This document shows, piece after piece, positions 1,265-16,479 of a stretch of DNA of 32,558 nt. The stretch comes from a virus (lineage: Duplodnaviria > Heunggongvirae > Uroviricota > Caudoviricetes): IMG/VR virus record IMGVR_UViG_2695420817_000008; one strand, written 5' to 3'. Within the stretch, counting starts at the first letter, position 1. Each line of letters opens with the position of its first letter. The position numbers and the translations under genes are program-made. The notes beneath the pieces were generated by a model. That model was not told the DNA's origin. It saw only the letters and a list, made by a program, of their open reading frames with translations, and made no database searches.

Positions 1265-1771
1265 TCATTTTAATCTATCAAGGAGTGGCTCTCTTTCCTT
1301 CTTCTCTGATTCTCTTCGGTTTAATAACGCTTTAAACTCTTGAAGCTCAACCATTATTTTATGAACGAATACACTGGTATAGAGAGAAATAAAGAGTAAT
1401 CCACCTGAAATTTTTAAGACCCTGAAGAGTAGGGCTTGATCATTTGTGCTTGCTATTAACCCCAAGATTACAAACAAAGTTGAAAATACATAGAAAGCTA
1501 ATAATAAAACCAATTTCAGTCTCTTGGATTTGACTATTGGCACTAATCGCCTAACCTCACTAGGGGTTAAAGACGAGTGGTCATTGGCCTCATTTGCCTT
1601 AAAAATGGCTTGTATACAATATGATAATGGCAATTGCATGAGTCCAACCACAGCCCACGGAGCTGTTAGGACAACACCCGGTGTAATATAGCCCAATGCT
1701 GACTTGAACAAAAAGTAACCAGCAACATAGAAGACCAACATACCAATAAGGTGGATGATGTTCGATTTCAT
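1265..1771 (-). CDS. small integral membrane protein (168 aa, four predicted TM helices); RexB-like or SieB-like exclusion candidate
   Basis: Hydrophobic segments IIHLIGMLVFYVAGYFLF, VVLTAPWAVVGLMQLPLSY, LKLVLLLAFYVFSTLFVILGLIA and GGLLFISLYTSVFV, with a charged C-terminal tail. AT-rich and co-oriented with the cI-like gene. Confidence 0.6.
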   Translation of the reverse strand: MKSNIIHLIGMLVFYVAGYFLFKSALGYITPGVVLTAPWAVVGLMQLPLSYCIQAIFKANEANDHSSLTPSEVRRLVPIVKSKRLKLVLLLAFYVFSTLFVILGLIASTNDQALLFRVLKISGGLLFISLYTSVFVHKIMVELQEFKALLNRRESEKKEREPLLDRLK

Positions 1772-1792
1772 TATCGCCCTCCTTTTGGTAGG

Positions 1793-2815
1793 TTATTTTG
1801 CAACCAATTCTCCGGCATCAAGTTTTGAGAACAGCCACTTATGCATTTTTAAGAATAAATCATTTTCATCAATAATGCCATTGTTATGTTCAACGCTAAT
1901 TTTTCCGGATAATTTTATCTCTTTTCCCGTTATTTCCCCACCGCCTTGAAGTTTGATGCTAATATCATCCTCATCTAGATGTCGTAGTGAGGTAGCAATA
2001 CTGTCTATAACAGCTTGACCGCTATCATTTGTTTTTCTGAAGTATGTAATCTCGAGGCTTACTTGTAAATTGGCCTCATCTAATGAATCTTTAATGTTTA
2101 TATCATTTGCCCAGTTATCGCCAAAAAATGCTTTTAGTAGCGCACCTCCTTTCCCTATTGGGCGGTATTTTATTGTCTTCACCGAACCATTTGAAAAGGA
2201 GGGTGTTTGGTTCTCTGAATTTTTAACTTCTGAAGTAATGGGTAATCCACCAATTTTTATGCTCTTGGCTGGTGCTTTCTCCATTTTTTTCATCGTTTCT
2301 TCGGATGGCTTATCTTGAAGCATTAACACAGATTCTTTTTCATCTGTGAATGTATTAATTAGCCAATTCAAATGCGCCTCAAGCTCCCTTGCTCGAAGCG
2401 ATGTGGATTGAACGATCATGACATGGTTGTTTAGTACACCAAAATATAAAATTGAATCTACAAACTCTCTTTTTTTGTCACTACGTTTATCTCCATCAAT
2501 AATTATATCATTAGACGTGATGGAGTTAATGTCATAAAATTTAACATTATCACTAAGCTCTAATAGAGACTGGCTTTTGTCTTTTTCAAATAAAACCAGT
2601 TGCCCAAAAAGTATAGTTTTGTATGTGTCGCTTTTATTTAAGAAACGATACCCCGAATTTTCATCTGAAGGTGTTATTTTTTCTTGTCTACTAAGTACTT
2701 TTTCTGCAACGCCGCCCTCACCTATAATACTAAGTAGTATGTTTTGTAATGATGATTTGCTGTGTGGGATTACTGCTTTTTTATAATGAACGACTTTTTG
2801 TCTGTTATCTTTCAT
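1793..2815 (-). CDS. hypothetical soluble protein (340 aa), RexA-position partner of the membrane protein; no recognisable catalytic motif
   Basis: Long AT-rich ORF immediately downstream of the cI-like gene on the same strand, 21 nt upstream of the membrane-protein gene. No Walker or nuclease motif seen. Confidence 0.6.
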   Translation of the reverse strand: MKDNRQKVVHYKKAVIPHSKSSLQNILLSIIGEGGVAEKVLSRQEKITPSDENSGYRFLNKSDTYKTILFGQLVLFEKDKSQSLLELSDNVKFYDINSITSNDIIIDGDKRSDKKREFVDSILYFGVLNNHVMIVQSTSLRARELEAHLNWLINTFTDEKESVLMLQDKPSEETMKKMEKAPAKSIKIGGLPITSEVKNSENQTPSFSNGSVKTIKYRPIGKGGALLKAFFGDNWANDINIKDSLDEANLQVSLEITYFRKTNDSGQAVIDSIATSLRHLDEDDISIKLQGGGEITGKEIKLSGKISVEHNNGIIDENDLFLKMHKWLFSKLDAGELVAK

Positions 2816-6261: not shown

Positions 6262-6384
6262 AAGTAATGAGGTGATTTCCTTCTCTCCCACACTTCAAAA
6301 GATAGAGTTTATTATTTGAATTTACTATAATTTACTGATAAAACAAAAGAATTGTAGAGCAATTTTCATTTGAGGATGAAGTAA

Positions 6385-8031
6385 ATGTGTGAAACCTATA
6401 TTTTTAGGTTCCGTGACCTAGGAAAAAGTGAAGGATTTACCATCGAGCAACACAATAACATTGCTCGCCAAGAAGGGAATGTTTGGTGGGGGTGGTGGGC
6501 TAAATCTGGTGAGCGTTTCCCATCACTGGAACTAAAAAATGCGGCAGAAAAAAATAAACAAATATATTTTTTTGATTCAGGGCGGCTTAAATTTTATACC
6601 GCTGTATTAAAGGATACCTGCTCGTCAGCTTTAGGGGATATAAAAAAGCAATCTCCTAAGGATGGTCGCAGAACCCCAGCATATTATAATGAGAATGAGT
6701 TGCTGGGATGGTTAAATGTTTCTGAGATTATAGAAATTGATGCTTGTGATATCCTCAAAAAATTCACATATATTCCATTGGATGCATTGTTTGCAGGTAA
6801 TAAAGATTTAGATGAGCAACTTTTCAACAAAATTGTCTTTTCTTCAGCTGAATTAAAAAAACAAGATAGAACTATTTGGAAGATTAGACCTGCAAATGAT
6901 AAAGATTTACAGCATGAGTCATTAGCATCTCATTATGTTCCTTATAATTTCAGTCGGAAGTATAGCCAAAAAAAAGGGGAGTTTATAATTTGGCTTTCGG
7001 ATATTCATTTTGATGGCGGAAATGGGAAACATGCATTTCCGACACAAGATAATGATCAGCTAAAATGTTTATCCTCTCGAGTGGTGGAGTTGGCTGGAAA
7101 ATATAATAATGGGAGTAAATGTGCTGGGTTGGCTATTTCAGGTGATTTGACGTGGCAGTCACAGAAAGAGGGATTCGAGCAAGCTTTGAATTTTATCAAA
7201 GATGTTAGTTCTTCTCTTAGTCTGACAACGGATGATATAATTATTTGTCCTGGGAATCACGATGTAGGTCTGGTTTCTAAAGATGAGTACTTTAAAATCG
7301 TTGGTAAGCCTGTAACGGATAAACCATGGAAAATTCTGGCGGAAAACTACCATAGCGAAAGTAAACTTAATTATATAAAATTTTATCGAGATTTTTTTCA
7401 AAGGGAACCTGAAGAAAATTTATCACAAGGAAGGAAATTTTTACTAGGTGGCCATAAAGTTGTTGAAATAGCCGCATTGAACTCATGCGTATTACAACAA
7501 GTAAAAGATTCATTTTTGGGCATGGGATTTGTCGGTGAGCAACAACTCAGTGATGTTGCAAAATCTATGGGATGGATGAATGATAGCGGAGGAGATATAC
7601 TCAAAAAGAAAGGTGTTATAAGAATTGCTATGCTTCACCATCACCTAACTTCTATTAATGAAGTTGAAGATGCCTATCTTGATTCAAGATATAGTGTAAC
7701 ATTAGATGCAGAGCGATTATTACGTTGGGTAGTAAGGCATAAAGTTGATTATATTCTGCATGGTCATATGCACAGAAGTAGTTTTATTACAATAACAAAA
7801 AAACTATCTCCGTTAGAACCAGTGACGGATTCAAATCCTGAACATACATTCCAAATTGTTTCTTTGGGAAGTTCAGGAGTTGTTAGTTCGGAATTGCCAA
7901 GTCAGGATTGTGCTAACTATGCATGCGTACTGGATTTTTCTGGCGAAAAGCTAACTTTTAATTTTTTCAAGCTTGATAAACAGAGCGGAGAAAAAGTGGC
8001 GGCTACTTATATTGTTGAAGGTTTATTATGA
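6385..8031 (+). CDS. calcineurin-like metallophosphoesterase (548 aa) with an unassigned ~200-aa N-terminal domain
   Basis: All five metallophosphoesterase motifs in order: LSDIHFDG (D-x-H), ISGDLTW (GD), CPGNHD (GNH[DE]), MLHHHL (H) and LHGHMHR (GH-x-H). N-terminal region contains GNVWWGWWAK. AT-rich codon usage; GAGGA RBS. Confidence 0.8.
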   Translation: MCETYIFRFRDLGKSEGFTIEQHNNIARQEGNVWWGWWAKSGERFPSLELKNAAEKNKQIYFFDSGRLKFYTAVLKDTCSSALGDIKKQSPKDGRRTPAYYNENELLGWLNVSEIIEIDACDILKKFTYIPLDALFAGNKDLDEQLFNKIVFSSAELKKQDRTIWKIRPANDKDLQHESLASHYVPYNFSRKYSQKKGEFIIWLSDIHFDGGNGKHAFPTQDNDQLKCLSSRVVELAGKYNNGSKCAGLAISGDLTWQSQKEGFEQALNFIKDVSSSLSLTTDDIIICPGNHDVGLVSKDEYFKIVGKPVTDKPWKILAENYHSESKLNYIKFYRDFFQREPEENLSQGRKFLLGGHKVVEIAALNSCVLQQVKDSFLGMGFVGEQQLSDVAKSMGWMNDSGGDILKKKGVIRIAMLHHHLTSINEVEDAYLDSRYSVTLDAERLLRWVVRHKVDYILHGHMHRSSFITITKKLSPLEPVTDSNPEHTFQIVSLGSSGVVSSELPSQDCANYACVLDFSGEKLTFNFFKLDKQSGEKVAATYIVEGLL

Positions 8032-8864
8032 AATTACTTATTACTGATTTGGATAATACACTGTACGATTGGGTGAGTTTTTACTCCCAGTCATTTAGTG
8101 CCATGGCAGAGCAATTATCTAAGGATATTGATGTGCCTTTGGATACGCTCCTGTCAGAATATAAAACAATTCATCAGAAGTTTGGTAACTCAGAAAAACC
8201 ATTTGCTACTTTAGAGCTACCATCTGTGATATCTTACTTTGGAACTAATGATAAAACGATTTTGCAGGAAAAACTTACTAATGTTTTTCAGGCGTTTAGC
8301 ACAAAACGTAACCAGACATTAATGTTGTATCCTACTGTAAAAGAAACGCTGGAATTATTGAAGAAACGGGGGGTAAAAATTGTAGGGCATACTGAAGCTT
8401 TGGAGTTTAATTCTTTATATCGTCTGAATAAGCTTGGTATAATTGATTTTTTTGATCATCTTTATACATTAGAAGATATTCATAATATCCACCCGAATCC
8501 CAAAAATGCAAAAAAAATACCTGTGAAGGATGACTTTGTAATTAGATTGTCCTGCGCTGAGTCAAAGCCAAACCCTAAATTGCTTGAGCACATATGTTCT
8601 TTTGAAGGAGTTAGTGTTGAAGATGCGGTATACATTGGCGATTCTATAACTAAAGATATGTCCATGGCTAAAGCTGTGGGGGTTACTGCTGTTTGGGCTA
8701 ATTATGGGCGACAGTTTTCACCTGAATTGTGGAAAGTTTTAGTGAAAATCACACACTGGAAAGATGCAGATGTGGAGAGGGAGGAACAACTTAGAAAAGC
8801 ATTCTCCAATGTTAGACCTGATTATGTTGTTAATAGTTTTTCAGAGCTGCTGAATTTGAAATGA
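8028..8864 (+). CDS. HAD-superfamily phosphatase (278 aa), translationally coupled to the phosphoesterase gene
   Basis: HAD motif I LITDLDNTLYDW (DxD), a conserved Lys in ESKPNPK and motif IV YIGDSITKD. Its ATG overlaps the upstream TGA (ATGA). Confidence 0.8.
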   Translation: MKLLITDLDNTLYDWVSFYSQSFSAMAEQLSKDIDVPLDTLLSEYKTIHQKFGNSEKPFATLELPSVISYFGTNDKTILQEKLTNVFQAFSTKRNQTLMLYPTVKETLELLKKRGVKIVGHTEALEFNSLYRLNKLGIIDFFDHLYTLEDIHNIHPNPKNAKKIPVKDDFVIRLSCAESKPNPKLLEHICSFEGVSVEDAVYIGDSITKDMSMAKAVGVTAVWANYGRQFSPELWKVLVKITHWKDADVEREEQLRKAFSNVRPDYVVNSFSELLNLK

Positions 8865-11379: not shown

Positions 11380-11452
11380 AAGGCATATATTCCGTGTAAA
11401 TCTGATATTTTGCCAATGTTGTATGTGCAACTGTTCGTAGGTGTCGTAAGGG

Positions 11453-11481
11453 TTGACTATCCAATTTCCAGGATATAGATT
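11453..11481 (+). promoter_or_regulatory. late promoter pR'-like (TTGACT, 17-bp spacer, TAGATT) with a lambda-like leader downstream
   Basis: Sigma-70 hexamers read directly. The downstream leader (CCGCCAAGTTGGTAACTTCGAC...GGGACTCCAACC...GAGAGGTC) resembles the lambda pR'/qut leader as recalled. Confidence 0.6.
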
Positions 11482-11600
11482 TTTCTGCAATAAAGGTTTT
11501 GGGAATGAAGGGGCGGCTCCCAAAAGATAACCGCCAAGTTGGTAACTTCGACTCGATAATTGGTCTGGGACTCCAACCGTGTCGGCTGAGAGGTCGACGT

Positions 11601-12404
11601 CTATTTCTTTTGGGGAAGTGGATACTTTAAGCTAACATTTTGAGTTTCTATATCTCGTGGCCCTCGAGTTTTATCATAAAAATACCAGATATTAAATTTT
11701 CTCTCAGTGTGCCATGTATCATATTGCAAATGATCCCAGCCTAAATATGAAGCAACATAGTTTGATACTCTTATTTTGGCTTCAGATGAAGCTTTTCCTT
11801 GATATGCGCACATAACCGCACCTAAGAAAAAATCGGCTAGCTGAATGTTTTCAGATGCTTTAGAGTCTTTTGTCACTACACTGCTGATTATCCCTTTACG
11901 ACCAAATTTTCTATTCAATATGTTATTGGCAATAACATTTAGTTCTTCATCGGCCTTTTTATAACGAGATGCGATAGGATCAACTTCAATCCTGAAGTAA
12001 CTGTCTCTTTCAGGGTGTGCAGAAATTACAGAGCTAATTTTTGTGGTAATGAGATTTGTGAAGTGCTTTCTCCTTGCCAGGTCATAATCCCCATTATGAA
12101 ATGTCTTGTTTACTATTGATTTTTCAACCACGATACAATGAAAAGCTAGCCAAGGAACTCTAAAGAATAAGTCGATCAGCTCAAGATAAAATTCAGAGTA
12201 TCTTTTTGAATGGGCTTTTTGCCATTTTATTTCTTCAAAAAAACCATGTTTGCTACGTAGTTCTCTGATTAGTTGACAGAAATCCCCACGGCGTTGGTAC
12301 TTCATCCACAGACTGCCAAAGCCGTAGAAACGTTGCCCATCAATGCCAGATTCATCGCAAGCAATATGCCAAATTAACTTACCAATGTTATCTTTTTCTG
12401 TCAT
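11601..12404 (-). CDS. hypothetical accessory protein (267 aa), possibly DUF3800-like; moron between Q and lysis genes
   Basis: AT-rich ORF antisense to late transcription, with N-terminal HIACDESG and C-terminal QLADFFLGAV motifs. Family assignment is from memory and tentative. Confidence 0.6.
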   Translation of the reverse strand: MTEKDNIGKLIWHIACDESGIDGQRFYGFGSLWMKYQRRGDFCQLIRELRSKHGFFEEIKWQKAHSKRYSEFYLELIDLFFRVPWLAFHCIVVEKSIVNKTFHNGDYDLARRKHFTNLITTKISSVISAHPERDSYFRIEVDPIASRYKKADEELNVIANNILNRKFGRKGIISSVVTKDSKASENIQLADFFLGAVMCAYQGKASSEAKIRVSNYVASYLGWDHLQYDTWHTERKFNIWYFYDKTRGPRDIETQNVSLKYPLPQKK

Positions 12405-12632
12405 CTGCTGGTAATGCTCTTAGTCCTTAAAGCATGGTATTTAACCACACATGTAACTCATTGATAAAGATCGTTTTATGCAAGTTGCATGGATCGGCTT
12501 TTGAAGGCCATTCGCTTAGTTATAAGATTTTTTAGTTATTTTGAGTTGACTGTTTATAACAATATTTCCCATGTAAGTTTTTAATCATTAGCGTCCCGGC
12601 CTTTCGTCGGCGGCGAAACATTGGCTATTCAT

Positions 12633-12938
12633 ATGCACGAAAAAGAGAGCCTTGCCGGAGCGTTCTGGCTCGTTTTGCTGATCATCGCAGGTTGGGGCGG
12701 TCTGGTCCGCTATCTGATAGATGTGAAGCAAAGTAAAGCAACGTGGAGCTGGATAAATGCTCTGGCTCAGATAGTGGTATCGGGATTCACCGGTGTTATT
12801 GGTGGCCTGATCAGTATCGAAAGTGGATTCAGTATTTACATGATTCTCGCGACAGCGGGGATTAGTGGTGCGATGGGCTCGGTTGCACTGACGTACTTCT
12901 GGGAACGACTGACAGGGGTGAAAAATGCAAAATCTTAA
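12633..12938 (+). CDS. holin (three predicted TM helices)
   Basis: Hydrophobic segments AFWLVLLIIAGWGGLV, ALAQIVVSGFTGVIGGLISI and IYMILATAGISGAMGSVALTYFW with a charged C-terminus. Overlaps the R start as S does in lambda. The ORF is open from a TTG at 12621; not lambda S by sequence. Confidence 0.6.
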   Translation: MHEKESLAGAFWLVLLIIAGWGGLVRYLIDVKQSKATWSWINALAQIVVSGFTGVIGGLISIESGFSIYMILATAGISGAMGSVALTYFWERLTGVKNAKS

Positions 12939-13401
12939 TCCTCAGCGTAAAGCTTTCCTCGATATGTTGGCGTGGTCAGAAGGAACGGATAACGTGCGAC
13001 AACCGACACGTAACCGCGGTTATGACGTTATTGTCGGTGGCGAACTCTTCACTGATTACTCCGATCACCCTCGAAAACTTGTCACGCTAAACCCGAAACT
13101 CAAATCAACAGCCGCAGGCCGTTATCAACTTCTTTCACGCTGGTGGGATGCTTACCGCAAGCAGTTAGGGCTGACAGACTTCTCTCCTAAAAGCCAGGAT
13201 GCTGTTGCATTGCAGCAGATTAAGGAGCGTGGTGCTTTACTAATGATTGATCGCGGTGACATCCGTCAGGCAATCGACTGTTGCAGCAATATCTGGGCTT
13301 CGTTACCCGGAGCAGGTTACGGTCAGTATGAACATAAAATCGGTGACCTGATTTCCCGATTTAAAGAGGCTGGTGGGGTGGTAAATGAAGTTGAGCTATA
13401 A
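12925..13401 (+). CDS. R: endolysin R (lambda-type lytic transglycosylase)
   Basis: NPQRKAFLDMLAWSEGTDN...GYDVIVGGELFTDYSDHPRKLVTLNPKLKST...RYQLLSRWWDAYRKQLGL matches lambda R as recalled. Confidence 0.92.
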   Translation: MQNLNPQRKAFLDMLAWSEGTDNVRQPTRNRGYDVIVGGELFTDYSDHPRKLVTLNPKLKSTAAGRYQLLSRWWDAYRKQLGLTDFSPKSQDAVALQQIKERGALLMIDRGDIRQAIDCCSNIWASLPGAGYGQYEHKIGDLISRFKEAGGVVNEVEL

Positions 13402-13777
13402 GCTGGTTATCGCTGCTTTTCTCGTTACTGTCATCGGTTCTTTCATCTGGTCTGCCAACCACTACTACAGCAAATATCAGCACGAAAAGAAACGTGCTGA
13501 TGAGGCTGTACAAAATGCCAAATCGGCAACTGTCATTACCAATAACGTCCTGCAATCACTGCAAATCGTCAATACAGTTCTGGAGGCTAGCCAGCATGCA
13601 AAACAGCAGATTGCACTGGAGTCACAGAGAACCCAGACAGATATCAAAACGGCTGTTGCGAATGATGATTGCGCTGCCCGTCCTGTTCCTGCTCGTGCAG
13701 CTGAACGGCTGCGCCGGTACGCGGACAGTTTACGTACCAGTTCCAGCGGTACCGCTACCGGCGAATCTGACCACTGA
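13385..13777 (+). CDS. i-spanin (Rz-like), N-terminal TM anchor plus coiled-coil region
   Basis: MKLSYKLVIAAFLVTVIGSFIWSANHYYSKYQHEKKRADEAV...; positioned after R with its start overlapping the R 3' end. Confidence 0.6.
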   Translation: MKLSYKLVIAAFLVTVIGSFIWSANHYYSKYQHEKKRADEAVQNAKSATVITNNVLQSLQIVNTVLEASQHAKQQIALESQRTQTDIKTAVANDDCAARPVPARAAERLRRYADSLRTSSSGTATGESDH

Positions 13778-13919
13778 GACCCCACAACCAGTTATTCCTG
13801 ATCCGCTGACCTATGGGGGCAGTCTGGATTTGAATGTCAGTCTGCTTTCCGCGCTGGCGACCTGTAACCGAGATAAAGCTGATATTCGAAAAATTGAAGC
13901 AGAGAGGATCAAGCTATGA
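13662..13919 (+). CDS. o-spanin (Rz1-like lipoprotein) in overlapped architecture
   Basis: +1-frame ORF starting inside Rz: MMIALPVLFLLVQLNGC (signal peptide with lipobox-like LNGC) then a Pro-rich region VPVPAVPLPANLTTETPQPVIPDP; extends 142 nt past the Rz stop. Confidence 0.55.
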   Translation: MMIALPVLFLLVQLNGCAGTRTVYVPVPAVPLPANLTTETPQPVIPDPLTYGGSLDLNVSLLSALATCNRDKADIRKIEAERIKL

Positions 13920-14237
13920 AGCAGTAAAGCGGACGGACCGTGGCAAGTGGCGCCAATGCAGCAGTCATGATGCTGCCCCGAATACCCAAAGTTGCGGGTA
14001 GCCAGTCTCAGGTAAAAAGCTGAGGGCGTACTGGTGAGGGGTAACGGGAAGAAGCGCACCGGTACTCCAGGCTGGTCGCCAGTCAGCTTCCGGTTAGTGG
14101 TGAGGGATTCACGAGATACCCCTGACACATGGCCTCAAGGGAATGAGCGCAGCTACTGCGAGAGTGTGGTTGGCATTCACTTAGTGCTTGCGATAATGCT
14201 TTTAGTTACAATCACTTCATCGATAAATGAGGTGAAG

Positions 14238-14777
14238 ATGAACGCAGATTATATAGCTTACGAATCATTGGTTGCCACTAGAAATACAGCAGAATGGGCT
14301 TTTTGGTCAATGGTAGGAACGTGGTTTTCAGGCATTGCAACCTTTATGGCAGTATGCCTGACTTTATATATTTCTAACCGTCGACCTCGACCGAAGTTAA
14401 GAGGAACAGTATCGCTTGGGGGCATCACAGGCCAAAATGTGAGCACGTTTGGAGTTACGATCAACATTGCAAATGTTGGCATTCAAACCGCAACTATAAC
14501 TTCAGTAACATGGACGTTCGGTACAAAAAACTCACTACTTCAGATTCTGGGGGGTGGGTTTGGTGACGATTTACCAAAAAAAATTGAGCATGGCGAATAT
14601 GCATTTTTCTTTATTCAAAATGATACTAATGGCGACTGGGCCAGAGATATGAAAAATAAGATATGGGAACAGGGCGGCAACGTTCGCAAATTAATGTTGC
14701 TTGTGCACCTTGCTACCGGCGATACGATGAAAATTAAGCCAGCCAAAAATGTAATAAAAATGATCGAAAAATCATAA
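14238..14777 (+). CDS. hypothetical membrane-anchored protein (179 aa, one N-terminal TM helix)
   Basis: GAGG RBS then ATG. TM segment WAFWSMVGTWFSGIATFMAVCLTLYI followed by a Gly/Thr-rich domain. AT-rich, lying between the spanin genes and cos. The ORF is open from a GTG at 14034 but the upstream part has different composition. Confidence 0.55.
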   Translation: MNADYIAYESLVATRNTAEWAFWSMVGTWFSGIATFMAVCLTLYISNRRPRPKLRGTVSLGGITGQNVSTFGVTINIANVGIQTATITSVTWTFGTKNSLLQILGGGFGDDLPKKIEHGEYAFFFIQNDTNGDWARDMKNKIWEQGGNVRKLMLLVHLATGDTMKIKPAKNVIKMIEKS

Positions 14778-14884
14778 CATCCACAGGTGCATCACCATAG
14801 ACAGCCTCCATTCTAATCTCACCATCACAGGATCTCGTAGAGTGTCTGTGATGGTGCTATATCCTGTAAAGTAAAGGGAGACCA

Positions 14885-15172
14885 ATGATGACATCTTTAA
14901 CCGTTGCGGTATTAGCTTTAATAGTTGCAATCTGGCATGAGATAAACCGATTTCCAGCAACCGGGAAGAGCTTACTGTCTTTACAGCAAGAAGTTAGGGA
15001 GCTGAGGGATGAAAATGAAAGATTAGCCTCTGAAGTAGATTCTTTAAAGGATGAGTTACTTGAAATTTCAAATCAGATAGATCGAATTAAAGACCCTGAA
15101 TATTATGCATTGCTTGATGCAGGAGATGGAGTGGGTCTTTATGAAATAGAAAAGTCAAGAGGTCAAATTTAA
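14885..15172 (+). CDS. hypothetical small membrane-anchored coiled-coil protein (95 aa)
   Basis: AGGGAG RBS; N-terminal TM segment LTVAVLALIVAIW; heptad-like charged region LQQEVRELRDENERLASEVDSLKDELLEISNQIDRIK; terminator immediately downstream. Confidence 0.55.
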   Translation: MMTSLTVAVLALIVAIWHEINRFPATGKSLLSLQQEVRELRDENERLASEVDSLKDELLEISNQIDRIKDPEYYALLDAGDGVGLYEIEKSRGQI

Positions 15173-15173
15173 T

Positions 15174-15199
15174 AACCGCCTTTTTGGCGGTTTATTATT
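15174..15199 (+). terminator. intrinsic terminator (AACCGCC-TTTTT-GGCGGTT followed by TATTATT)
   Basis: Stem-loop and T-rich tail read directly after the 95-aa ORF stop. Confidence 0.6.
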
Positions 15200-15236
15200 C
15201 CGTCATCATGGGCAGGCCCATCGTAACTGCAGTATC

Positions 15237-15563
15237 TTATATACACCAATGACATCTCTGGATGGTTGGCAGTCCTGTTAGTTGGCCTGCGGTGGACTCG
15301 GCCTCGTCAAGCGTAAGAACACATACTTTTTGGTATCGGCCAGTAGTAAAGCCGGCGTGATTTTTTGGGCTGATTAACGGGTTGATTGATTTGCATGAGG
15401 CTCGATGAATCCGCGTAAATCTGGCATCATTTTTTCTGCCTTTCCCGCTGGCCGACTTAAGCAGATTAATAACGAATCCATCGGAATGGGTTGCTAGCCA
15501 ACTCTTGTACATCGCTTCGCTATCAACATCCTGTATTTCACTGCTGAAAATAGTAATGCCCAT
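15237..15563 (-). CDS. hypothetical protein (108 aa)
   Basis: Only sizeable ORF between the terminator and cos. Cys residues in ASCKS, KVCVL and RCHWCI; no family recognised. Confidence 0.35.
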   Translation of the reverse strand: MGITIFSSEIQDVDSEAMYKSWLATHSDGFVINLLKSASGKGRKNDARFTRIHRASCKSINPLISPKNHAGFTTGRYQKVCVLTLDEAESTAGQLTGLPTIQRCHWCI

Positions 15564-15671
15564 ATTTTTTCCGTATATGACTAACTGATATGAATATGTA
15601 TCAGGACTATTTTATGGCAAAACCAGAGTAGAAGGCCATTGGGGTCCGGAGTGTTGATGTGAACAAATTAA

Positions 15672-15682
15672 CCCCCCCCCCC
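15672..15682. repeat. C11 homopolymeric tract
   Basis: Eleven consecutive C residues, about 110 bp upstream of the minus-strand 108-aa ORF start and about 65 bp before cosN. Confidence 0.9.
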
Positions 15683-15699
15683 TTTAAGTGTAATTGATA

Positions 15700-15933
15700 T
15701 GTATTATCATTTTCGGGTCCTTTCCGGCGATCCAGAACGTTACGGGGCGGAAGGCGCGCGGGTTTTCGCTATTTATGAAAATTTTCCGGTTTAAGGCGTT
15801 TCCGTTCTTCTTCGTCGTAACTTAATGTTTTTATTTAAAACACCCTCTAAAAAGAAAGGAAACGACAGGTGCTGAAAACGGGCTTTTTGGCTTCTGTCGT
15901 TTCCTTTCTCTGTTTTTGTCCGTGGAATGAACA
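15700..15933. other. cos: cos region (cosQ, cosN, cosB); inferred cohesive-end 12-mer GGGCGGAAGGCG at 15745..15756
   Basis: Flanks match lambda (GGGTCCTTTCCGG...GTTACG upstream; CGCGGGTTTTCGCTATTTATGAAAATTTTCCGGTTTAAGGCGTTTCCGTTC... downstream). The 12-mer differs from lambda GGGCGGCGACCT at positions 7-12. Confidence 0.8.
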
Positions 15934-16453
15934 ATGGAAGTCAACAAAAAGCAGCTGGCTGACATTTTCGGCGCGAGTATCCGTACCATTCAGAACTGGC
16001 AGGAGCAGGGAATGCCCGTTCTGCGAGGCGGTGGGAAGGGTAATGAGGTGCTTTATGACTCTGCCGCCGTCATAAAATGGTATGCCGAAAGGGATGCTGA
16101 AATTGAGAACGAAAAGCTGCGCCGGGAGGTTGAAGAACTGCGACAGGCCAGCGAGACAGATCTCCAGCCAGGGACTATTGAGTACGAACGCCATCGACTT
16201 ACGCGTGCGCAGGCCGACGCACAGGAGCTGAAAAATGCCAGAGACTCCGCTGAAGTGGTGGAAACCGCATTCTGTTCTTTCGTGCTGTCGCGGATCGCAG
16301 GTGAAATTGCCAGTATTCTCGACGGGATCCCCCTGTCGGTGCAGCGGCGTTTTCCGGAACTGGAAAACCGACATGTTGATTTCCTGAAACGGGATATCAT
16401 CAAAGCCATGAACAAAGCAGCCGCGCTGGATGAACTGATACCGGGGTTGCTGA

Positions 16454-16479
<26 letters not shown>
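15934..16479 (+). CDS. nu1: terminase small subunit Nu1
   Basis: MEVNKKQLADIFGASIRTIQNWQEQGMPVLRGGGKGNEVLYDSAAVIKWYAERDAEIENEKLRREVEEL... matches lambda Nu1 as recalled. Confidence 0.95.

What the first reader, a model, noticed from the sequence alone, without database searches (positions are those of the whole stretch)
14238..15199. Pair of small membrane-anchored proteins (179 aa and 95 aa coiled-coil) with their own terminator between the spanin genes and cos
Both genes are AT-rich and have good RBSs, and the pair ends at a clean intrinsic terminator. The first has one TM helix and a Gly/Thr-rich probable periplasmic domain; the second has a TM anchor and a charged heptad-repeat region. 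They occupy the slot lambda uses for bor-type lysogenic-conversion genes, and I recognise neither. A surface-exclusion or envelope-modification role is plausible.
Basis: partly seen in the sequence, partly recalled or inferred. Interest (0 to 1): 0.55.

Follow-up and report, generated by a model that had tools for sequence, protein, structure and literature searches.

The report
Two unrelated prophage cargo membrane genes
Between the lysis genes and the DNA-packaging site of an E. coli lambda-like prophage sit two real but uncharacterised small membrane-protein genes that are independent add-on ("moron") genes rather than a working pair, so this is an ordinary kind of phage cargo whose function is still unknown.

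Summary
Two conserved, AT-rich genes (40.7% and 37.2% GC against 48-58% in the flanks) lie at 14238-14777 and 14885-15172. Both have Shine-Dalgarno sites. A terminator follows, and the position is between Rz/Rz1 and cos.

The interpretation needs correcting in three places.
- **They are not a pair.** The two genes co-occur only in this prophage type (5 of 5426 complete E. coli genomes). Elsewhere each occurs without the other.
- **The first protein probably faces inward.** It belongs to a large unnamed family (976 clusters, no Pfam match). It has a highly conserved N-terminal membrane helix and an Ig-like beta-sandwich. The positive-inside rule places that domain in the cytoplasm in 141 of 147 members, not the periplasm. 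The family sits after lysis genes or inside tail operons, and is always lower in GC than its flanks (33 of 33 loci). That is moron behaviour.
- **The second protein is a membrane-anchored leucine zipper.** Its resemblance to FtsB/DivIC stays below threshold.

The terminator and a 35-nt joint belong to the slot, not to these genes. Function is inferred only: most likely prophage accessory or anti-phage genes acting at the inner membrane. This is a new member of a known kind, of moderate-to-low interest.

The parts
13920..14172 (.). Conserved GC-rich (58%) non-coding element just after the Rz1-like stop codon. It forms the left backbone edge of the variable slot.
   Evidence: It is 85-95% identical in other E. 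coli prophages that carry different cargo downstream. Its 33 substitutions show no codon-phase bias, at 13/8/12. There is no Rfam match. Folding z-scores are -1.5 and -1.2.
14170..14197 (+). Sigma-70 promoter-like site: TTGGCA, a 16-nt spacer, then GATAAT preceded by TG. It lies about 40 nt upstream of the A179 start.
   Evidence: It matches 10 of 12 consensus positions and is the best site in 11400-16100. Homology to other prophages breaks at about 14173-14200. Part of the site is also present in locus L023, where the cargo differs. Whether it belongs to the cassette, and whether it is active, is therefore unproven.
14238..14777 (+). A179. A 179-aa single-pass inner-membrane protein: a long N-terminal helix containing a highly conserved membrane segment, followed by an Ig-like beta-sandwich of about 125 aa that is predicted to be cytoplasmic.
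14820..14856 (+). Strong hairpin in the A-B spacer (12-bp stem, -21.8 kcal/mol) with no U-tract. It immediately precedes a weak extended -10-like TGCTATAT.
   Evidence: Fold. A hairpin at the same position, with a different stem sequence, lies upstream of B95 homologues in Citrobacter loci. Its role is unknown.
14885..15172 (+). B95. A 95-aa (probably 94-aa, from ATG 14888) N-terminally anchored leucine-zipper protein. It has a conserved juxtamembrane motif WHEINRFPA and a conserved C-terminal cap DPEYYALLDAGDGxGLYELEKSRG.
   Evidence: ORF. A family of 23 clusters in Citrobacter, Enterobacter, Klebsiella and E. coli. Alignment. AlphaFold2 model with pLDDT 88, helices 2-22, 24-69, 71-79 and 82-91. 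Heptad register with invariant Asn44 at an a position. Pfam DivIC match below threshold. dN/dS 0.06.
15174..15199 (+). Intrinsic terminator: a 7-bp GC-rich stem, a 5-nt loop and a T-rich tail. It also reads as a hairpin on the minus strand.
   Evidence: An equivalent hairpin with compensatory stem changes ends the slot in all B95-homologue loci, and in L002, which carries a different small gene.
15199..15235 (.). Conserved 35-nt joint (CCGTCATCATGGGCAGGCCCATCGTAACTGCAG) immediately after the terminator. It forms the right backbone edge of the slot.
   Evidence: It is conserved in the window, L009, L011, L012, L013, L017 and L002, whatever cargo lies to its left. It was not found in the lambda region fetched.
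15237..15563 (-). C108. A third, convergent cargo ORF (108 aa) between the terminator and cos. It is not part of the finding but lies in the same slot.
   Evidence: ORF. It is 99% conserved in L002, which lacks A179 and B95. A 52%-identical homologue lies next to an A179 homologue in a Raoultella prophage. A 54%-identical homologue is present in Klebsiella phage ST846-OXA48phi9.2. No family match.

Best explanation
The region holds two independent morons, stacked in the variable slot that lambdoid and P22-like prophages keep between the spanin genes and the packaging genes. A moron is an add-on cargo gene that is not needed for phage growth.

**A179.** It is a stand-alone, single-pass inner-membrane protein. 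Its short acidic N-terminus is outside. It has a highly conserved membrane helix rich in small residues. An Ig-like beta-sandwich sits on the cytoplasmic face.

**B95.** It is an unrelated protein anchored by its N-terminus. It most likely forms a parallel dimer through a six-heptad leucine zipper with a buried Asn. The zipper presents a conserved juxtamembrane motif and a conserved C-terminal helical cap.

**Inferred function (not shown).** Each acts alone as a prophage accessory factor at the inner membrane. The most likely role is protecting the lysogen from other phages. A179 would do this either by blocking a step at the cytoplasmic face of the membrane or by sensing a phage product and disturbing the membrane through its conserved helix. 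In the lytic cycle both genes would simply be read through by Q-modified polymerase.

**Shown versus inferred.** Shown here are gene reality, architecture, independence, moron-type distribution and the lack of any known family. Inferred are topology, dimerisation, expression from the prophage and the anti-phage role.
For: **Presence/absence polymorphism.** The cassette is in 5 of 5426 complete E. coli genomes. Collinear prophages carry other cargo between the same backbone edges.

**Independence.** tblastn and HMM searches over all fetched loci find A179 and B95 together only in this prophage type.

**Moron signature for the A179 family.**
- GC is lower than both 2-kb flanks in 33 of 33 distinct loci, with a mean of 40% against 52% and 51%.
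- The family occupies two unrelated late-operon positions. One is after lysozyme/Rz/holin and before terminase. The other is between the tail tube and the tape measure.
- Distant members are singletons in chromosomes with no conserved partner.

**Dispensable for lytic growth.** B95 has no match in 50,697 phage records. A179 has one full-length match, Pantoea phage AH07 gp56.

**Purifying selection.** dN/dS is 0.13 and 0.06.

**Architecture.**
- AlphaFold2 models have pLDDT 85 and 88.
- 16 of the 21 invariant columns of the A179 family lie in residues 1-43.
- The positive-inside count is 141 of 147.
- Asn44 of B95 is invariant and sits at an a position.

**Regulatory signals.** A promoter-like site lies at the left edge and a terminator at the right edge.

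**Literature.** The position upstream of the packaging module is a recognised site for anti-phage morons in E. coli phages such as phi80 (PMC11364771). Small late-operon morons such as Tab defend lysogens (PMC10884400).
Against: **No direct evidence of function or expression.**
- No match to any PADLOC defence model or to any PHROG annotated as exclusion.
- The promoter scan has no statistical force: 4 sites were found against 9.0 expected in shuffles.
- Part of the promoter-like sequence is backbone rather than cassette.

**Signs of late co-transcription.** In several phages the A179 homologue starts only 7-25 nt after the preceding late gene. It would then be made late in infection, which would also fit a role in the phage's own cycle.

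**Weak association evidence.** Neighbours of distant family members are mostly housekeeping genes, so there is no clear defence-island signal.

**Topology is only predicted.** It rests on the positive-inside rule. For B95 the charge bias is weak: +2/-1 after the helix and no charge before it.
Confidence: 0.5

Rival explanations
1. Both genes are late lytic-cycle accessories of the lysis module, for example regulators of holin or spanin timing. They would be transcribed with S-R-Rz from pR' and have no role in the lysogen.
For: - Both families lie on the late strand just downstream of spanin genes in many phages of different types.
- Some A179 homologues start 7-25 nt after the preceding gene, which implies co-transcription.
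- B95 has the membrane anchor plus coiled coil of Rz-type i-spanins, with weak PHROG hits to them at E 0.03-0.09.
- The conserved membrane helix of A179 could contact a holin.
Against: - About a quarter of distinct A179-family phage loci lie between the tail tube and tape measure genes, far from any lysis gene.
- Distant members are chromosomal singletons.
- Both genes are missing from nearly all cultured phages and from collinear prophages that have the same holin, lysozyme and spanin genes.
- The GC deviation is present in 33 of 33 loci.
- The phages concerned use unrelated holin and spanin families.
- B95 contains no embedded or adjacent lipoprotein ORF.
Confidence: 0.2
2. B95 is a phage-borne FtsB/DivIC-like protein that inserts into or competes with the FtsQLB divisome subcomplex and so modulates host cell division.
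For: - Pfam DivIC (PF04977) is the top and most consistent match, hitting 20 of 21 family members at E <= 1e-3, with a best E of 1.9e-6.
- The family profile hits solved FtsB chains 8bh1_E and 8p1u_E over residues 30-90. This extends beyond the coiled coil, unlike the other coiled-coil hits.
- hhalign against an FtsB alignment is collinear over 76 columns, covering the membrane helix, LKxxNxxLxxEIDxL, and PE-YYALL against PGETFYRLV. It gives E 3.2e-4.
- The size and architecture are the same as FtsB.
Against: - Every score is below threshold: 23 bits against a gathering score of 28.9, and an hhalign probability of only 39%.
- Generic leucine zippers (NEMO, C/EBP) score as well or better.
- No family member has a positive charge before the membrane helix, and one has Asp. 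This favours an N-out, C-in orientation, the opposite of FtsB.
- The C-terminal motif is modelled as two short helices at pLDDT above 88, not as the strand FtsB uses to bind FtsQ.
- The NCBIfam FtsB model matches at E 0.15.
Confidence: 0.1
3. A179 and B95 form one two-component, periplasm-facing surface-exclusion or envelope-modification system.
For: - The two genes are adjacent and on the same strand.
- They share low GC.
- One promoter-like site lies before them and one terminator after them.
- Both are membrane-anchored.
- The slot is the one lambda uses for bor.
Against: - The two families do not co-occur anywhere else among about 110 fetched loci.
- In a near-identical prophage A179 is truncated while B95 is intact (locus L025).
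- Charge distribution places the A179 domain in the cytoplasm.
- Neither protein has a lipobox or a cleavable signal peptide (sequence read directly).
- There is no similarity to Bor or to any exclusion family.
Confidence: 0.08

Closest known systems
Phage morons as defined for HK97/HK022 (Juhala et al. 2000), for example the HK97 gp15 superinfection-exclusion moron (Cumby et al. 2012). Both are cited in PMC10884400. Details of gp15 are from my own knowledge.
   Same: - Extra genes in a late operon between genes that are adjacent in related phages.
- Deviant base composition.
- A terminator downstream and a promoter-like site upstream.
- A small inner-membrane protein product.
   Different: - No sequence similarity to gp15 or to any characterised moron product.
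- No phenotype is known.
- A179 is larger and carries a folded beta-sandwich that is predicted to be cytoplasmic.
Lambda bor and the Rz-to-cos accessory region of lambda (bor, lambdap78, lambdap79)
   Same: The same slot between Rz/Rz1 and cos, holding non-essential cargo.
   Different: - bor is on the opposite strand and encodes an outer-membrane lipoprotein.
- A179 and B95 are on the late strand, lack a lipobox, and share no similarity with bor.
Tai (tail assembly inhibition) and Tab anti-phage morons (PMC11364771, PMC10884400)
   Same: - Tai: single small genes carried as morons, predominantly just upstream of the packaging module of E. coli phages such as phi80.
[quoted passage not shown]
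- Both act for the lysogen.
   Different: - The word 'transmembrane' occurs in neither paper.
- A179 and B95 found nothing beyond Pantoea phage AH07 and a partial Salmonella phage match among 50,697 phage records. They are therefore probably not Tai or Tab homologues, although phi80 was not compared directly.
- A179 and B95 are membrane-anchored.
FtsB/DivIC family (Pfam PF04977)
   Same: For B95: about 95-100 aa, an N-terminal membrane helix, a leucine zipper with Asn at an a position, and a short conserved C-terminal region. The alignment is collinear but weak.
   Different: - Below the Pfam gathering score.
- Opposite predicted orientation.
- Helical rather than strand-forming C-terminus in the model.
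- Encoded in a prophage cargo slot and not in a division or housekeeping context.
Membrane effectors of defence systems built from membrane helices plus a small beta domain, for example CBASS Cap15 (from my own knowledge)
   Same: For A179: an N-terminal membrane helix followed by a small all-beta cytoplasmic domain. This is a plausible sensor-plus-membrane-effector logic.
   Different: - One helix rather than two.
- No partner signalling enzyme nearby.

Membership tests
Phage moron (Juhala et al. 2000 sense) | Present in some phages and absent from otherwise collinear relatives, inserted between conserved backbone segments | tested here: met
   The cassette is in 5 of 5426 E. coli genomes. 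The backbone edges 13770-14173 and 15187-15700 are found in other prophages with different or no cargo.
Phage moron (Juhala et al. 2000 sense) | Base composition different from the neighbouring phage genes | tested here: met
   GC is 40.7% and 37.2% against 48-58% in the flanks. A179-family genes are lower in GC than both flanks in 33 of 33 loci.
Phage moron (Juhala et al. 2000 sense) | Own promoter upstream and terminator downstream | tested here: inconclusive
   The terminator is present but is shared by the slot. The promoter-like site matches 10 of 12 positions. It is partly backbone, and the scan is not enriched over shuffles.
Phage moron (Juhala et al. 2000 sense) | Expressed from the repressed prophage and beneficial to the lysogen | not testable with these tools
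   This needs transcript mapping and phenotype assays.
FtsB/DivIC (Pfam PF04977), for B95 | Score at or above the Pfam gathering threshold | tested here: not met
   23.0 bits against 28.9 for the window protein. 20 of 21 relatives match at E <= 1e-3, with a best E of 1.9e-6. The hhalign probability against FtsB is 39%.
FtsB/DivIC (Pfam PF04977), for B95 | Bitopic N-in/C-out topology with a periplasmic coiled coil | tested here: inconclusive
   No positive charge precedes the helix in any of the 21 members, and the net charge after it is +1. This leans towards N-out/C-in. Reporter fusions are needed.
FtsB/DivIC (Pfam PF04977), for B95 | Leucine zipper after the membrane helix with polar residues at core positions | tested here: met
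   Six heptads, with invariant Asn44 at an a position.
FtsB/DivIC (Pfam PF04977), for B95 | C-terminal segment that binds FtsQ by strand addition | tested here: inconclusive
   PEYYALL aligns with PGETFYRLV. The monomer model, however, makes two helices there. No complex could be modelled.
Rz-type i-spanin, for B95 | Membrane-anchored periplasmic coiled coil paired with an embedded or adjacent o-spanin lipoprotein gene | tested here: not met
   PHROG spanin matches reach only E 0.03-0.09. There is no second plus-strand ORF of 30 aa or more within or next to B95. The prophage already has Rz and an Rz1-like gene.
Known anti-phage defence or superinfection-exclusion families (PADLOC 2.0, PHROGs) | Significant match to a model of a known or candidate system | tested here: not met
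   A179 has no PADLOC match. B95 matches only a coiled-coil stretch of LmuB at E 0.005. A179 matches phrog_16957 and phrog_6169, both of unknown function, over the membrane helix.
Bor-type outer-membrane lipoprotein | Lipobox signal peptide and similarity to Bor | tested here: not met
   B95 has no Cys. The only Cys of A179 lies inside the membrane helix. There is no family match.
Obligate two-gene system (A179 + B95) | Co-occurrence and conserved adjacency across relatives | tested here: not met
   The two co-occur only in the window prophage type (L001, L024, L025, L031). They are separate in L003-L008, L009-L019, L020 and L026-L062.

The most novel reading that the evidence does not exclude
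The A179 family is a previously unrecognised, widespread, single-gene anti-phage factor (exclusion or abortive infection). The family has 976 clusters at 50% identity, no Pfam or defence-database entry, a highly conserved membrane helix and a cytoplasmic Ig-like domain. It is carried as a moron in at least two late-operon hotspots and as chromosomal singletons. A second, less likely novelty is that B95 is a phage-borne FtsB-like decoy acting on the divisome.
Probability: 0.3. Interest if true: 0.6.

Novelty: new member of a known kind. Interest (0 to 1): 0.35.

Why it matters
If either gene protects lysogens or alters host physiology, it adds a new protein family to the catalogue of prophage cargo. 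The A179 family is the better candidate, because it is large and entirely unannotated. The analysis also maps a reusable cargo slot in enterobacterial prophages. The slot is bounded by a conserved 250-nt element on the left and by a terminator plus a 35-nt joint on the right. Searching for those boundaries could turn up further cargo genes. As it stands, this is a well-defined but functionally unresolved example of ordinary moron biology.

Tried and rejected
**Family and database searches.**
- Pfam, NCBIfam, PADLOC and PHROGs scans of both proteins gave nothing informative.
- 44 diverse A179 relatives gave no Pfam match.
- A literature search for the accessions and for the PHROG identifier found nothing.

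**Structure searches.**
- The A179 model gave only generic Ig-like matches: TRAP-alpha, archaeal pilins, ApaG.
- The viral structure library returned only uncharacterised proteins.
- The AlphaFold database library was not available.
- The B95 model gave nothing.

**RNA and non-coding element.**
- Rfam and tRNA scans of the window and of the conserved upstream element found nothing.
- Folding of that element was not significant.
- A coding test on it was negative.

**Context of distant A179 relatives.**
- Three loci showed restriction-modification, recombinase or DUF3800 neighbours.
- A wider sample of 11 loci showed mostly unrelated housekeeping neighbours. I therefore dropped the defence-island argument.

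**Other readings rejected.**
- The lysis-accessory reading was rejected as the main explanation because of the tail-operon loci.
- The lambda cohesive-end sequence is not present exactly. A variant cos region was read directly.
- The first two attempts to scan collections with broad alignments failed for lack of a conserved stretch.
Full report
**Setting.** The window is a lambda-like prophage of E. coli. Reading left to right it carries:
- antiterminator Q;
- a minus-strand DUF3800 gene (11601-12404);
- holin (12621-12938);
- GH24 lysozyme (12925-13401);
- Rz (13385-13777), overlapped by an Rz1-like gene that ends at 13919;
- the finding;
- a lambda-type cos region at about 15741-15790;
- Nu1 (15934-16479), terminase A, and the head and tail genes.

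The same prophage is annotated in strain FHI_NMBU_03. There both genes of the finding are called 'hypothetical protein' (WP_126119126.1 and WP_024223836.1).

**Observation.**
- A179 (14238-14777) and B95 (14885-15172) are intact ORFs on the late strand.
- Their Shine-Dalgarno sites are GAGGTG and GGGAG.
- Their GC content is 40.7% and 37.2%. The lysis genes are 48-51%, the intergenic element just upstream is 58%, and the packaging genes are 53-54%.
- A hairpin with a T-rich tail follows B95 at 15174-15199, at -13 kcal/mol.
- Each protein has one strongly hydrophobic N-terminal segment.
- The A179 domain is 12.8% Gly and 10.4% Thr.
- B95 has six clean heptads with a = L,V,N,V,L,I and d = T,L,L,L,L,I,I.
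- Both are under purifying selection, with dN/dS of 0.13 and 0.06 against homologues of 70% and 65% identity.
- One detail differs: all B95 homologues begin at the second Met, which has the better spacing from the ribosome-binding site. The product is therefore probably 94 aa, starting at 14888.

**The genes are cargo in a variable slot.**
- Only 5 of 5426 complete E. coli genomes carry the cassette, all at 99.6% identity or more. No phage record matches it at the DNA level.
- To the left, homology to other prophages runs from the Rz1-like gene through a 250-nt GC-rich element and stops at about 14173-14200. Beyond that point those prophages carry an S1 peptidase gene or a minus-strand hypothetical gene instead.
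- To the right, homology resumes inside the terminator at 15187. Strain C4 has a different 67-codon gene there. That gene is followed by an equivalent terminator and the same 35-nt sequence.
- The terminator stem shows compensatory changes, and the joint is conserved after every B95 homologue examined. The 'own terminator' is therefore a property of the slot.
- A promoter-like site (TTGGCA, 16 nt, TG-n-GATAAT) sits at 14170-14197. Part of it also occurs in a prophage with other cargo, and the scan is not enriched over shuffled sequence. I treat it only as a candidate.

**They are not a pair.**
- A179 has 10 close clusters in the large protein collection: Citrobacter, Raoultella and metagenomes.
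- B95 has 23: Citrobacter, Enterobacter, Klebsiella and E. coli.
- In the loci fetched for A179 relatives, no B95 relative is present. In those fetched for B95 relatives, no A179 relative is present.
- An HMM search over all ORFs of the 86 loci held at that point confirmed that the two co-occur only in the window prophage type.
- In one near-identical viral contig A179 is truncated while B95 is intact.

**A179: family and structure.**
- A profile search of 1.84 billion representatives found 976 clusters at E <= 1e-3 and 234 at E <= 1e-10. Nearly all are 170-195 aa with the same layout.
- None of 44 diverse members matches Pfam. 36 of the 44 match phrog_16957, which has no known function.
- Every source name seen is 'hypothetical protein'. 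Hosts range from Enterobacterales to Dyella and Candidatus Kuenenia.
- The AlphaFold2 model (pLDDT 85) is a long helix (residues 3-47) followed by a beta-sandwich.
- Conservation is concentrated in the helix. 16 of the 21 invariant columns among close relatives fall in residues 1-43, including small residues G27, G32, A34 and A38. Some phage proteins share only this N-terminal module.
- Across 147 family members, the 15 residues after the helix hold 3.9 K+R on average, against 0.7 before it. The C-flank is the more positive in 141 of them. By the positive-inside rule the beta-sandwich is cytoplasmic and the short acidic N-terminus is outside.

**A179: genomic behaviour.** Thirty-six distinct phage or prophage loci were examined.
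- In one group, the upstream neighbours are lysozyme, Rz, holin or DUF2514, and the downstream neighbours are Nu1, small or large terminase, or HNH.
- In the other group, the upstream neighbours are the tail terminator and an Ig-decorated tail tube protein, and the downstream neighbours are tail chaperones and the tape measure.
- A gene that turns up in two unrelated late-operon positions is unlikely to be an accessory of either module.
- In 33 of 33 loci its GC is below both 2-kb flanks.
- Distant relatives are chromosomal singletons. A few lie beside restriction-modification, recombinase or DUF3800 genes. A wider sample shows no recurring neighbour. The protein therefore appears to work without a dedicated partner, and I make no defence-island claim.
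- Among 50,697 phage records the only full-length homologue is Pantoea phage AH07 gp56. It too lies directly after the Rz-like gene.

**B95.**
- The family is small and confined to Enterobacteriaceae prophages. It always sits on the late strand between lysis and packaging genes, and it is the last gene before the slot terminator.
- It has no match in the phage collection.
- Conserved parts are the juxtamembrane motif W17-H-E-I-N-R-F-P24 and the C-terminal D70-P-E-Y-Y-A-L-L-D-A-G-D-G-x-G-L-Y. The exposed coiled-coil positions vary.
- The model (pLDDT 88) has helix 2-22, a kink at Pro24, helix 24-69, and two short capping helices.
- An invariant Asn at a core a position is the classic mark of a parallel dimeric zipper. 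That is established knowledge from GCN4, applied here as an inference.

**B95 and FtsB/DivIC.** Pfam DivIC is the most consistent match, but every score is below threshold.
- *For a relationship:* the family profile finds solved FtsB chains over residues 30-90. hhalign against an FtsB alignment is collinear through the helix, the zipper and PE-YYALL / PGETFYRLV, with E 3.2e-4.
- *Against:* the hhalign probability is only 39%. Unrelated leucine zippers score as well. No member has a positive charge before the helix, which points to the opposite orientation from FtsB. The C-terminal motif is modelled as helices rather than a strand.
- I keep this as a low-probability rival.

**Function.** Nothing here shows function.
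- *What is shown:* each gene is an independent moron encoding an inner-membrane-anchored protein, and neither belongs to a characterised family.
- *What is inferred:* they serve the lysogen, most plausibly by interfering with other phages at the inner membrane. The grounds are the moron signature and the genes' absence from cultured phages. A further ground is that this slot is known to hold anti-phage morons. [quoted passage not shown] Tab is an 83-residue late-operon moron (PMC10884400).
- *The main rival:* a role in the phage's own late cycle. It draws on the tight spacing to the preceding late gene in several phages.

**Verdict.** The finding is real and correctly located. It is two unrelated cargo genes, not a system. 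The first protein's domain faces the cytoplasm. The terminator belongs to the slot. It is a new member of a known kind (phage morons), with moderate-to-low interest. The large unannotated A179 family is the part most worth an experiment.

Noticed in passing
window 13920-14172: A 250-nt, 58%-GC non-coding element directly after the Rz1-like stop codon. It is 85-95% conserved in other E. coli prophages whose downstream cargo differs. It shows no codon-phase bias, has no Rfam match, and does not fold significantly better than shuffles. Its nature is unknown; it may be a recombination joint or a regulatory element.
   Followed up: partly
window 15174-15235; also L002 3988-4045, L009/L011/L012/L013/L017 about 6290-6380: A terminator hairpin (with compensatory stem changes) plus a conserved 35-nt sequence containing the palindrome ATGGGC-AG-GCCCAT. 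Together they mark the right end of the post-lysis cargo slot in many enterobacterial prophages, whatever the cargo.
   Followed up: partly
window 15237-15563 (minus strand): A 108-aa ORF next to cos that RefSeq leaves unannotated in most records examined. It is conserved at 99% in a prophage lacking A179/B95, at 52% beside an A179 homologue in a Raoultella prophage, and at 54% in Klebsiella phage ST846-OXA48phi9.2. No family match. It is probably a third moron.
   Followed up: partly
window 14820-14856: A 12-bp-stem hairpin (-21.8 kcal/mol) without a U-tract, between A179 and B95. A hairpin with a different stem sequence occupies the same position upstream of B95 homologues in Citrobacter. 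It could be an operator, a processing site or a transcript stabiliser.
   Followed up: partly
window 11601-12404 (minus strand): A DUF3800 protein between Q and the holin. It matches the PADLOC candidate defence model PDC-M04A (E 7.8e-35) and phrog_3732 (E 1e-136). It is another cargo gene in a second moron slot of the same prophage.
   Followed up: partly
window 6385-8864: An AT-rich (34-37% GC) two-gene insert between replication gene P and the nin genes. It encodes a 548-aa metallophosphoesterase (weak PADLOC 'Effector' endonuclease match, E 9e-10) and a 278-aa HAD hydrolase. The hydrolase strongly matches PADLOC model PDLC03008 'Hydrolase' (E 4e-57). This is a likely defence-type cargo pair.
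   Followed up: partly
window 1265-2815 (minus strand): Two AT-rich hypothetical genes (168 and 340 aa) in the early-left/immunity region, with no PADLOC match. They occupy the kind of position where lambda carries accessory immunity-region genes.
   Followed up: partly
window about 15741-15790: The cos region closely resembles lambda's, but the cohesive-end core reads GGGCGGAAGGCG instead of GGGCGGCGACCT.
   Followed up: no
L064-L086 (viral contigs), L021 (Salmonella phage 118970_sal3, 4001-4300): Proteins of 99-220 aa that share only the N-terminal 30-60 residues (amphipathic helix plus conserved membrane helix) with A179 and have different C-terminal parts. They again lie just after spanin genes. 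This suggests the membrane helix is a reusable functional module.
   Followed up: no
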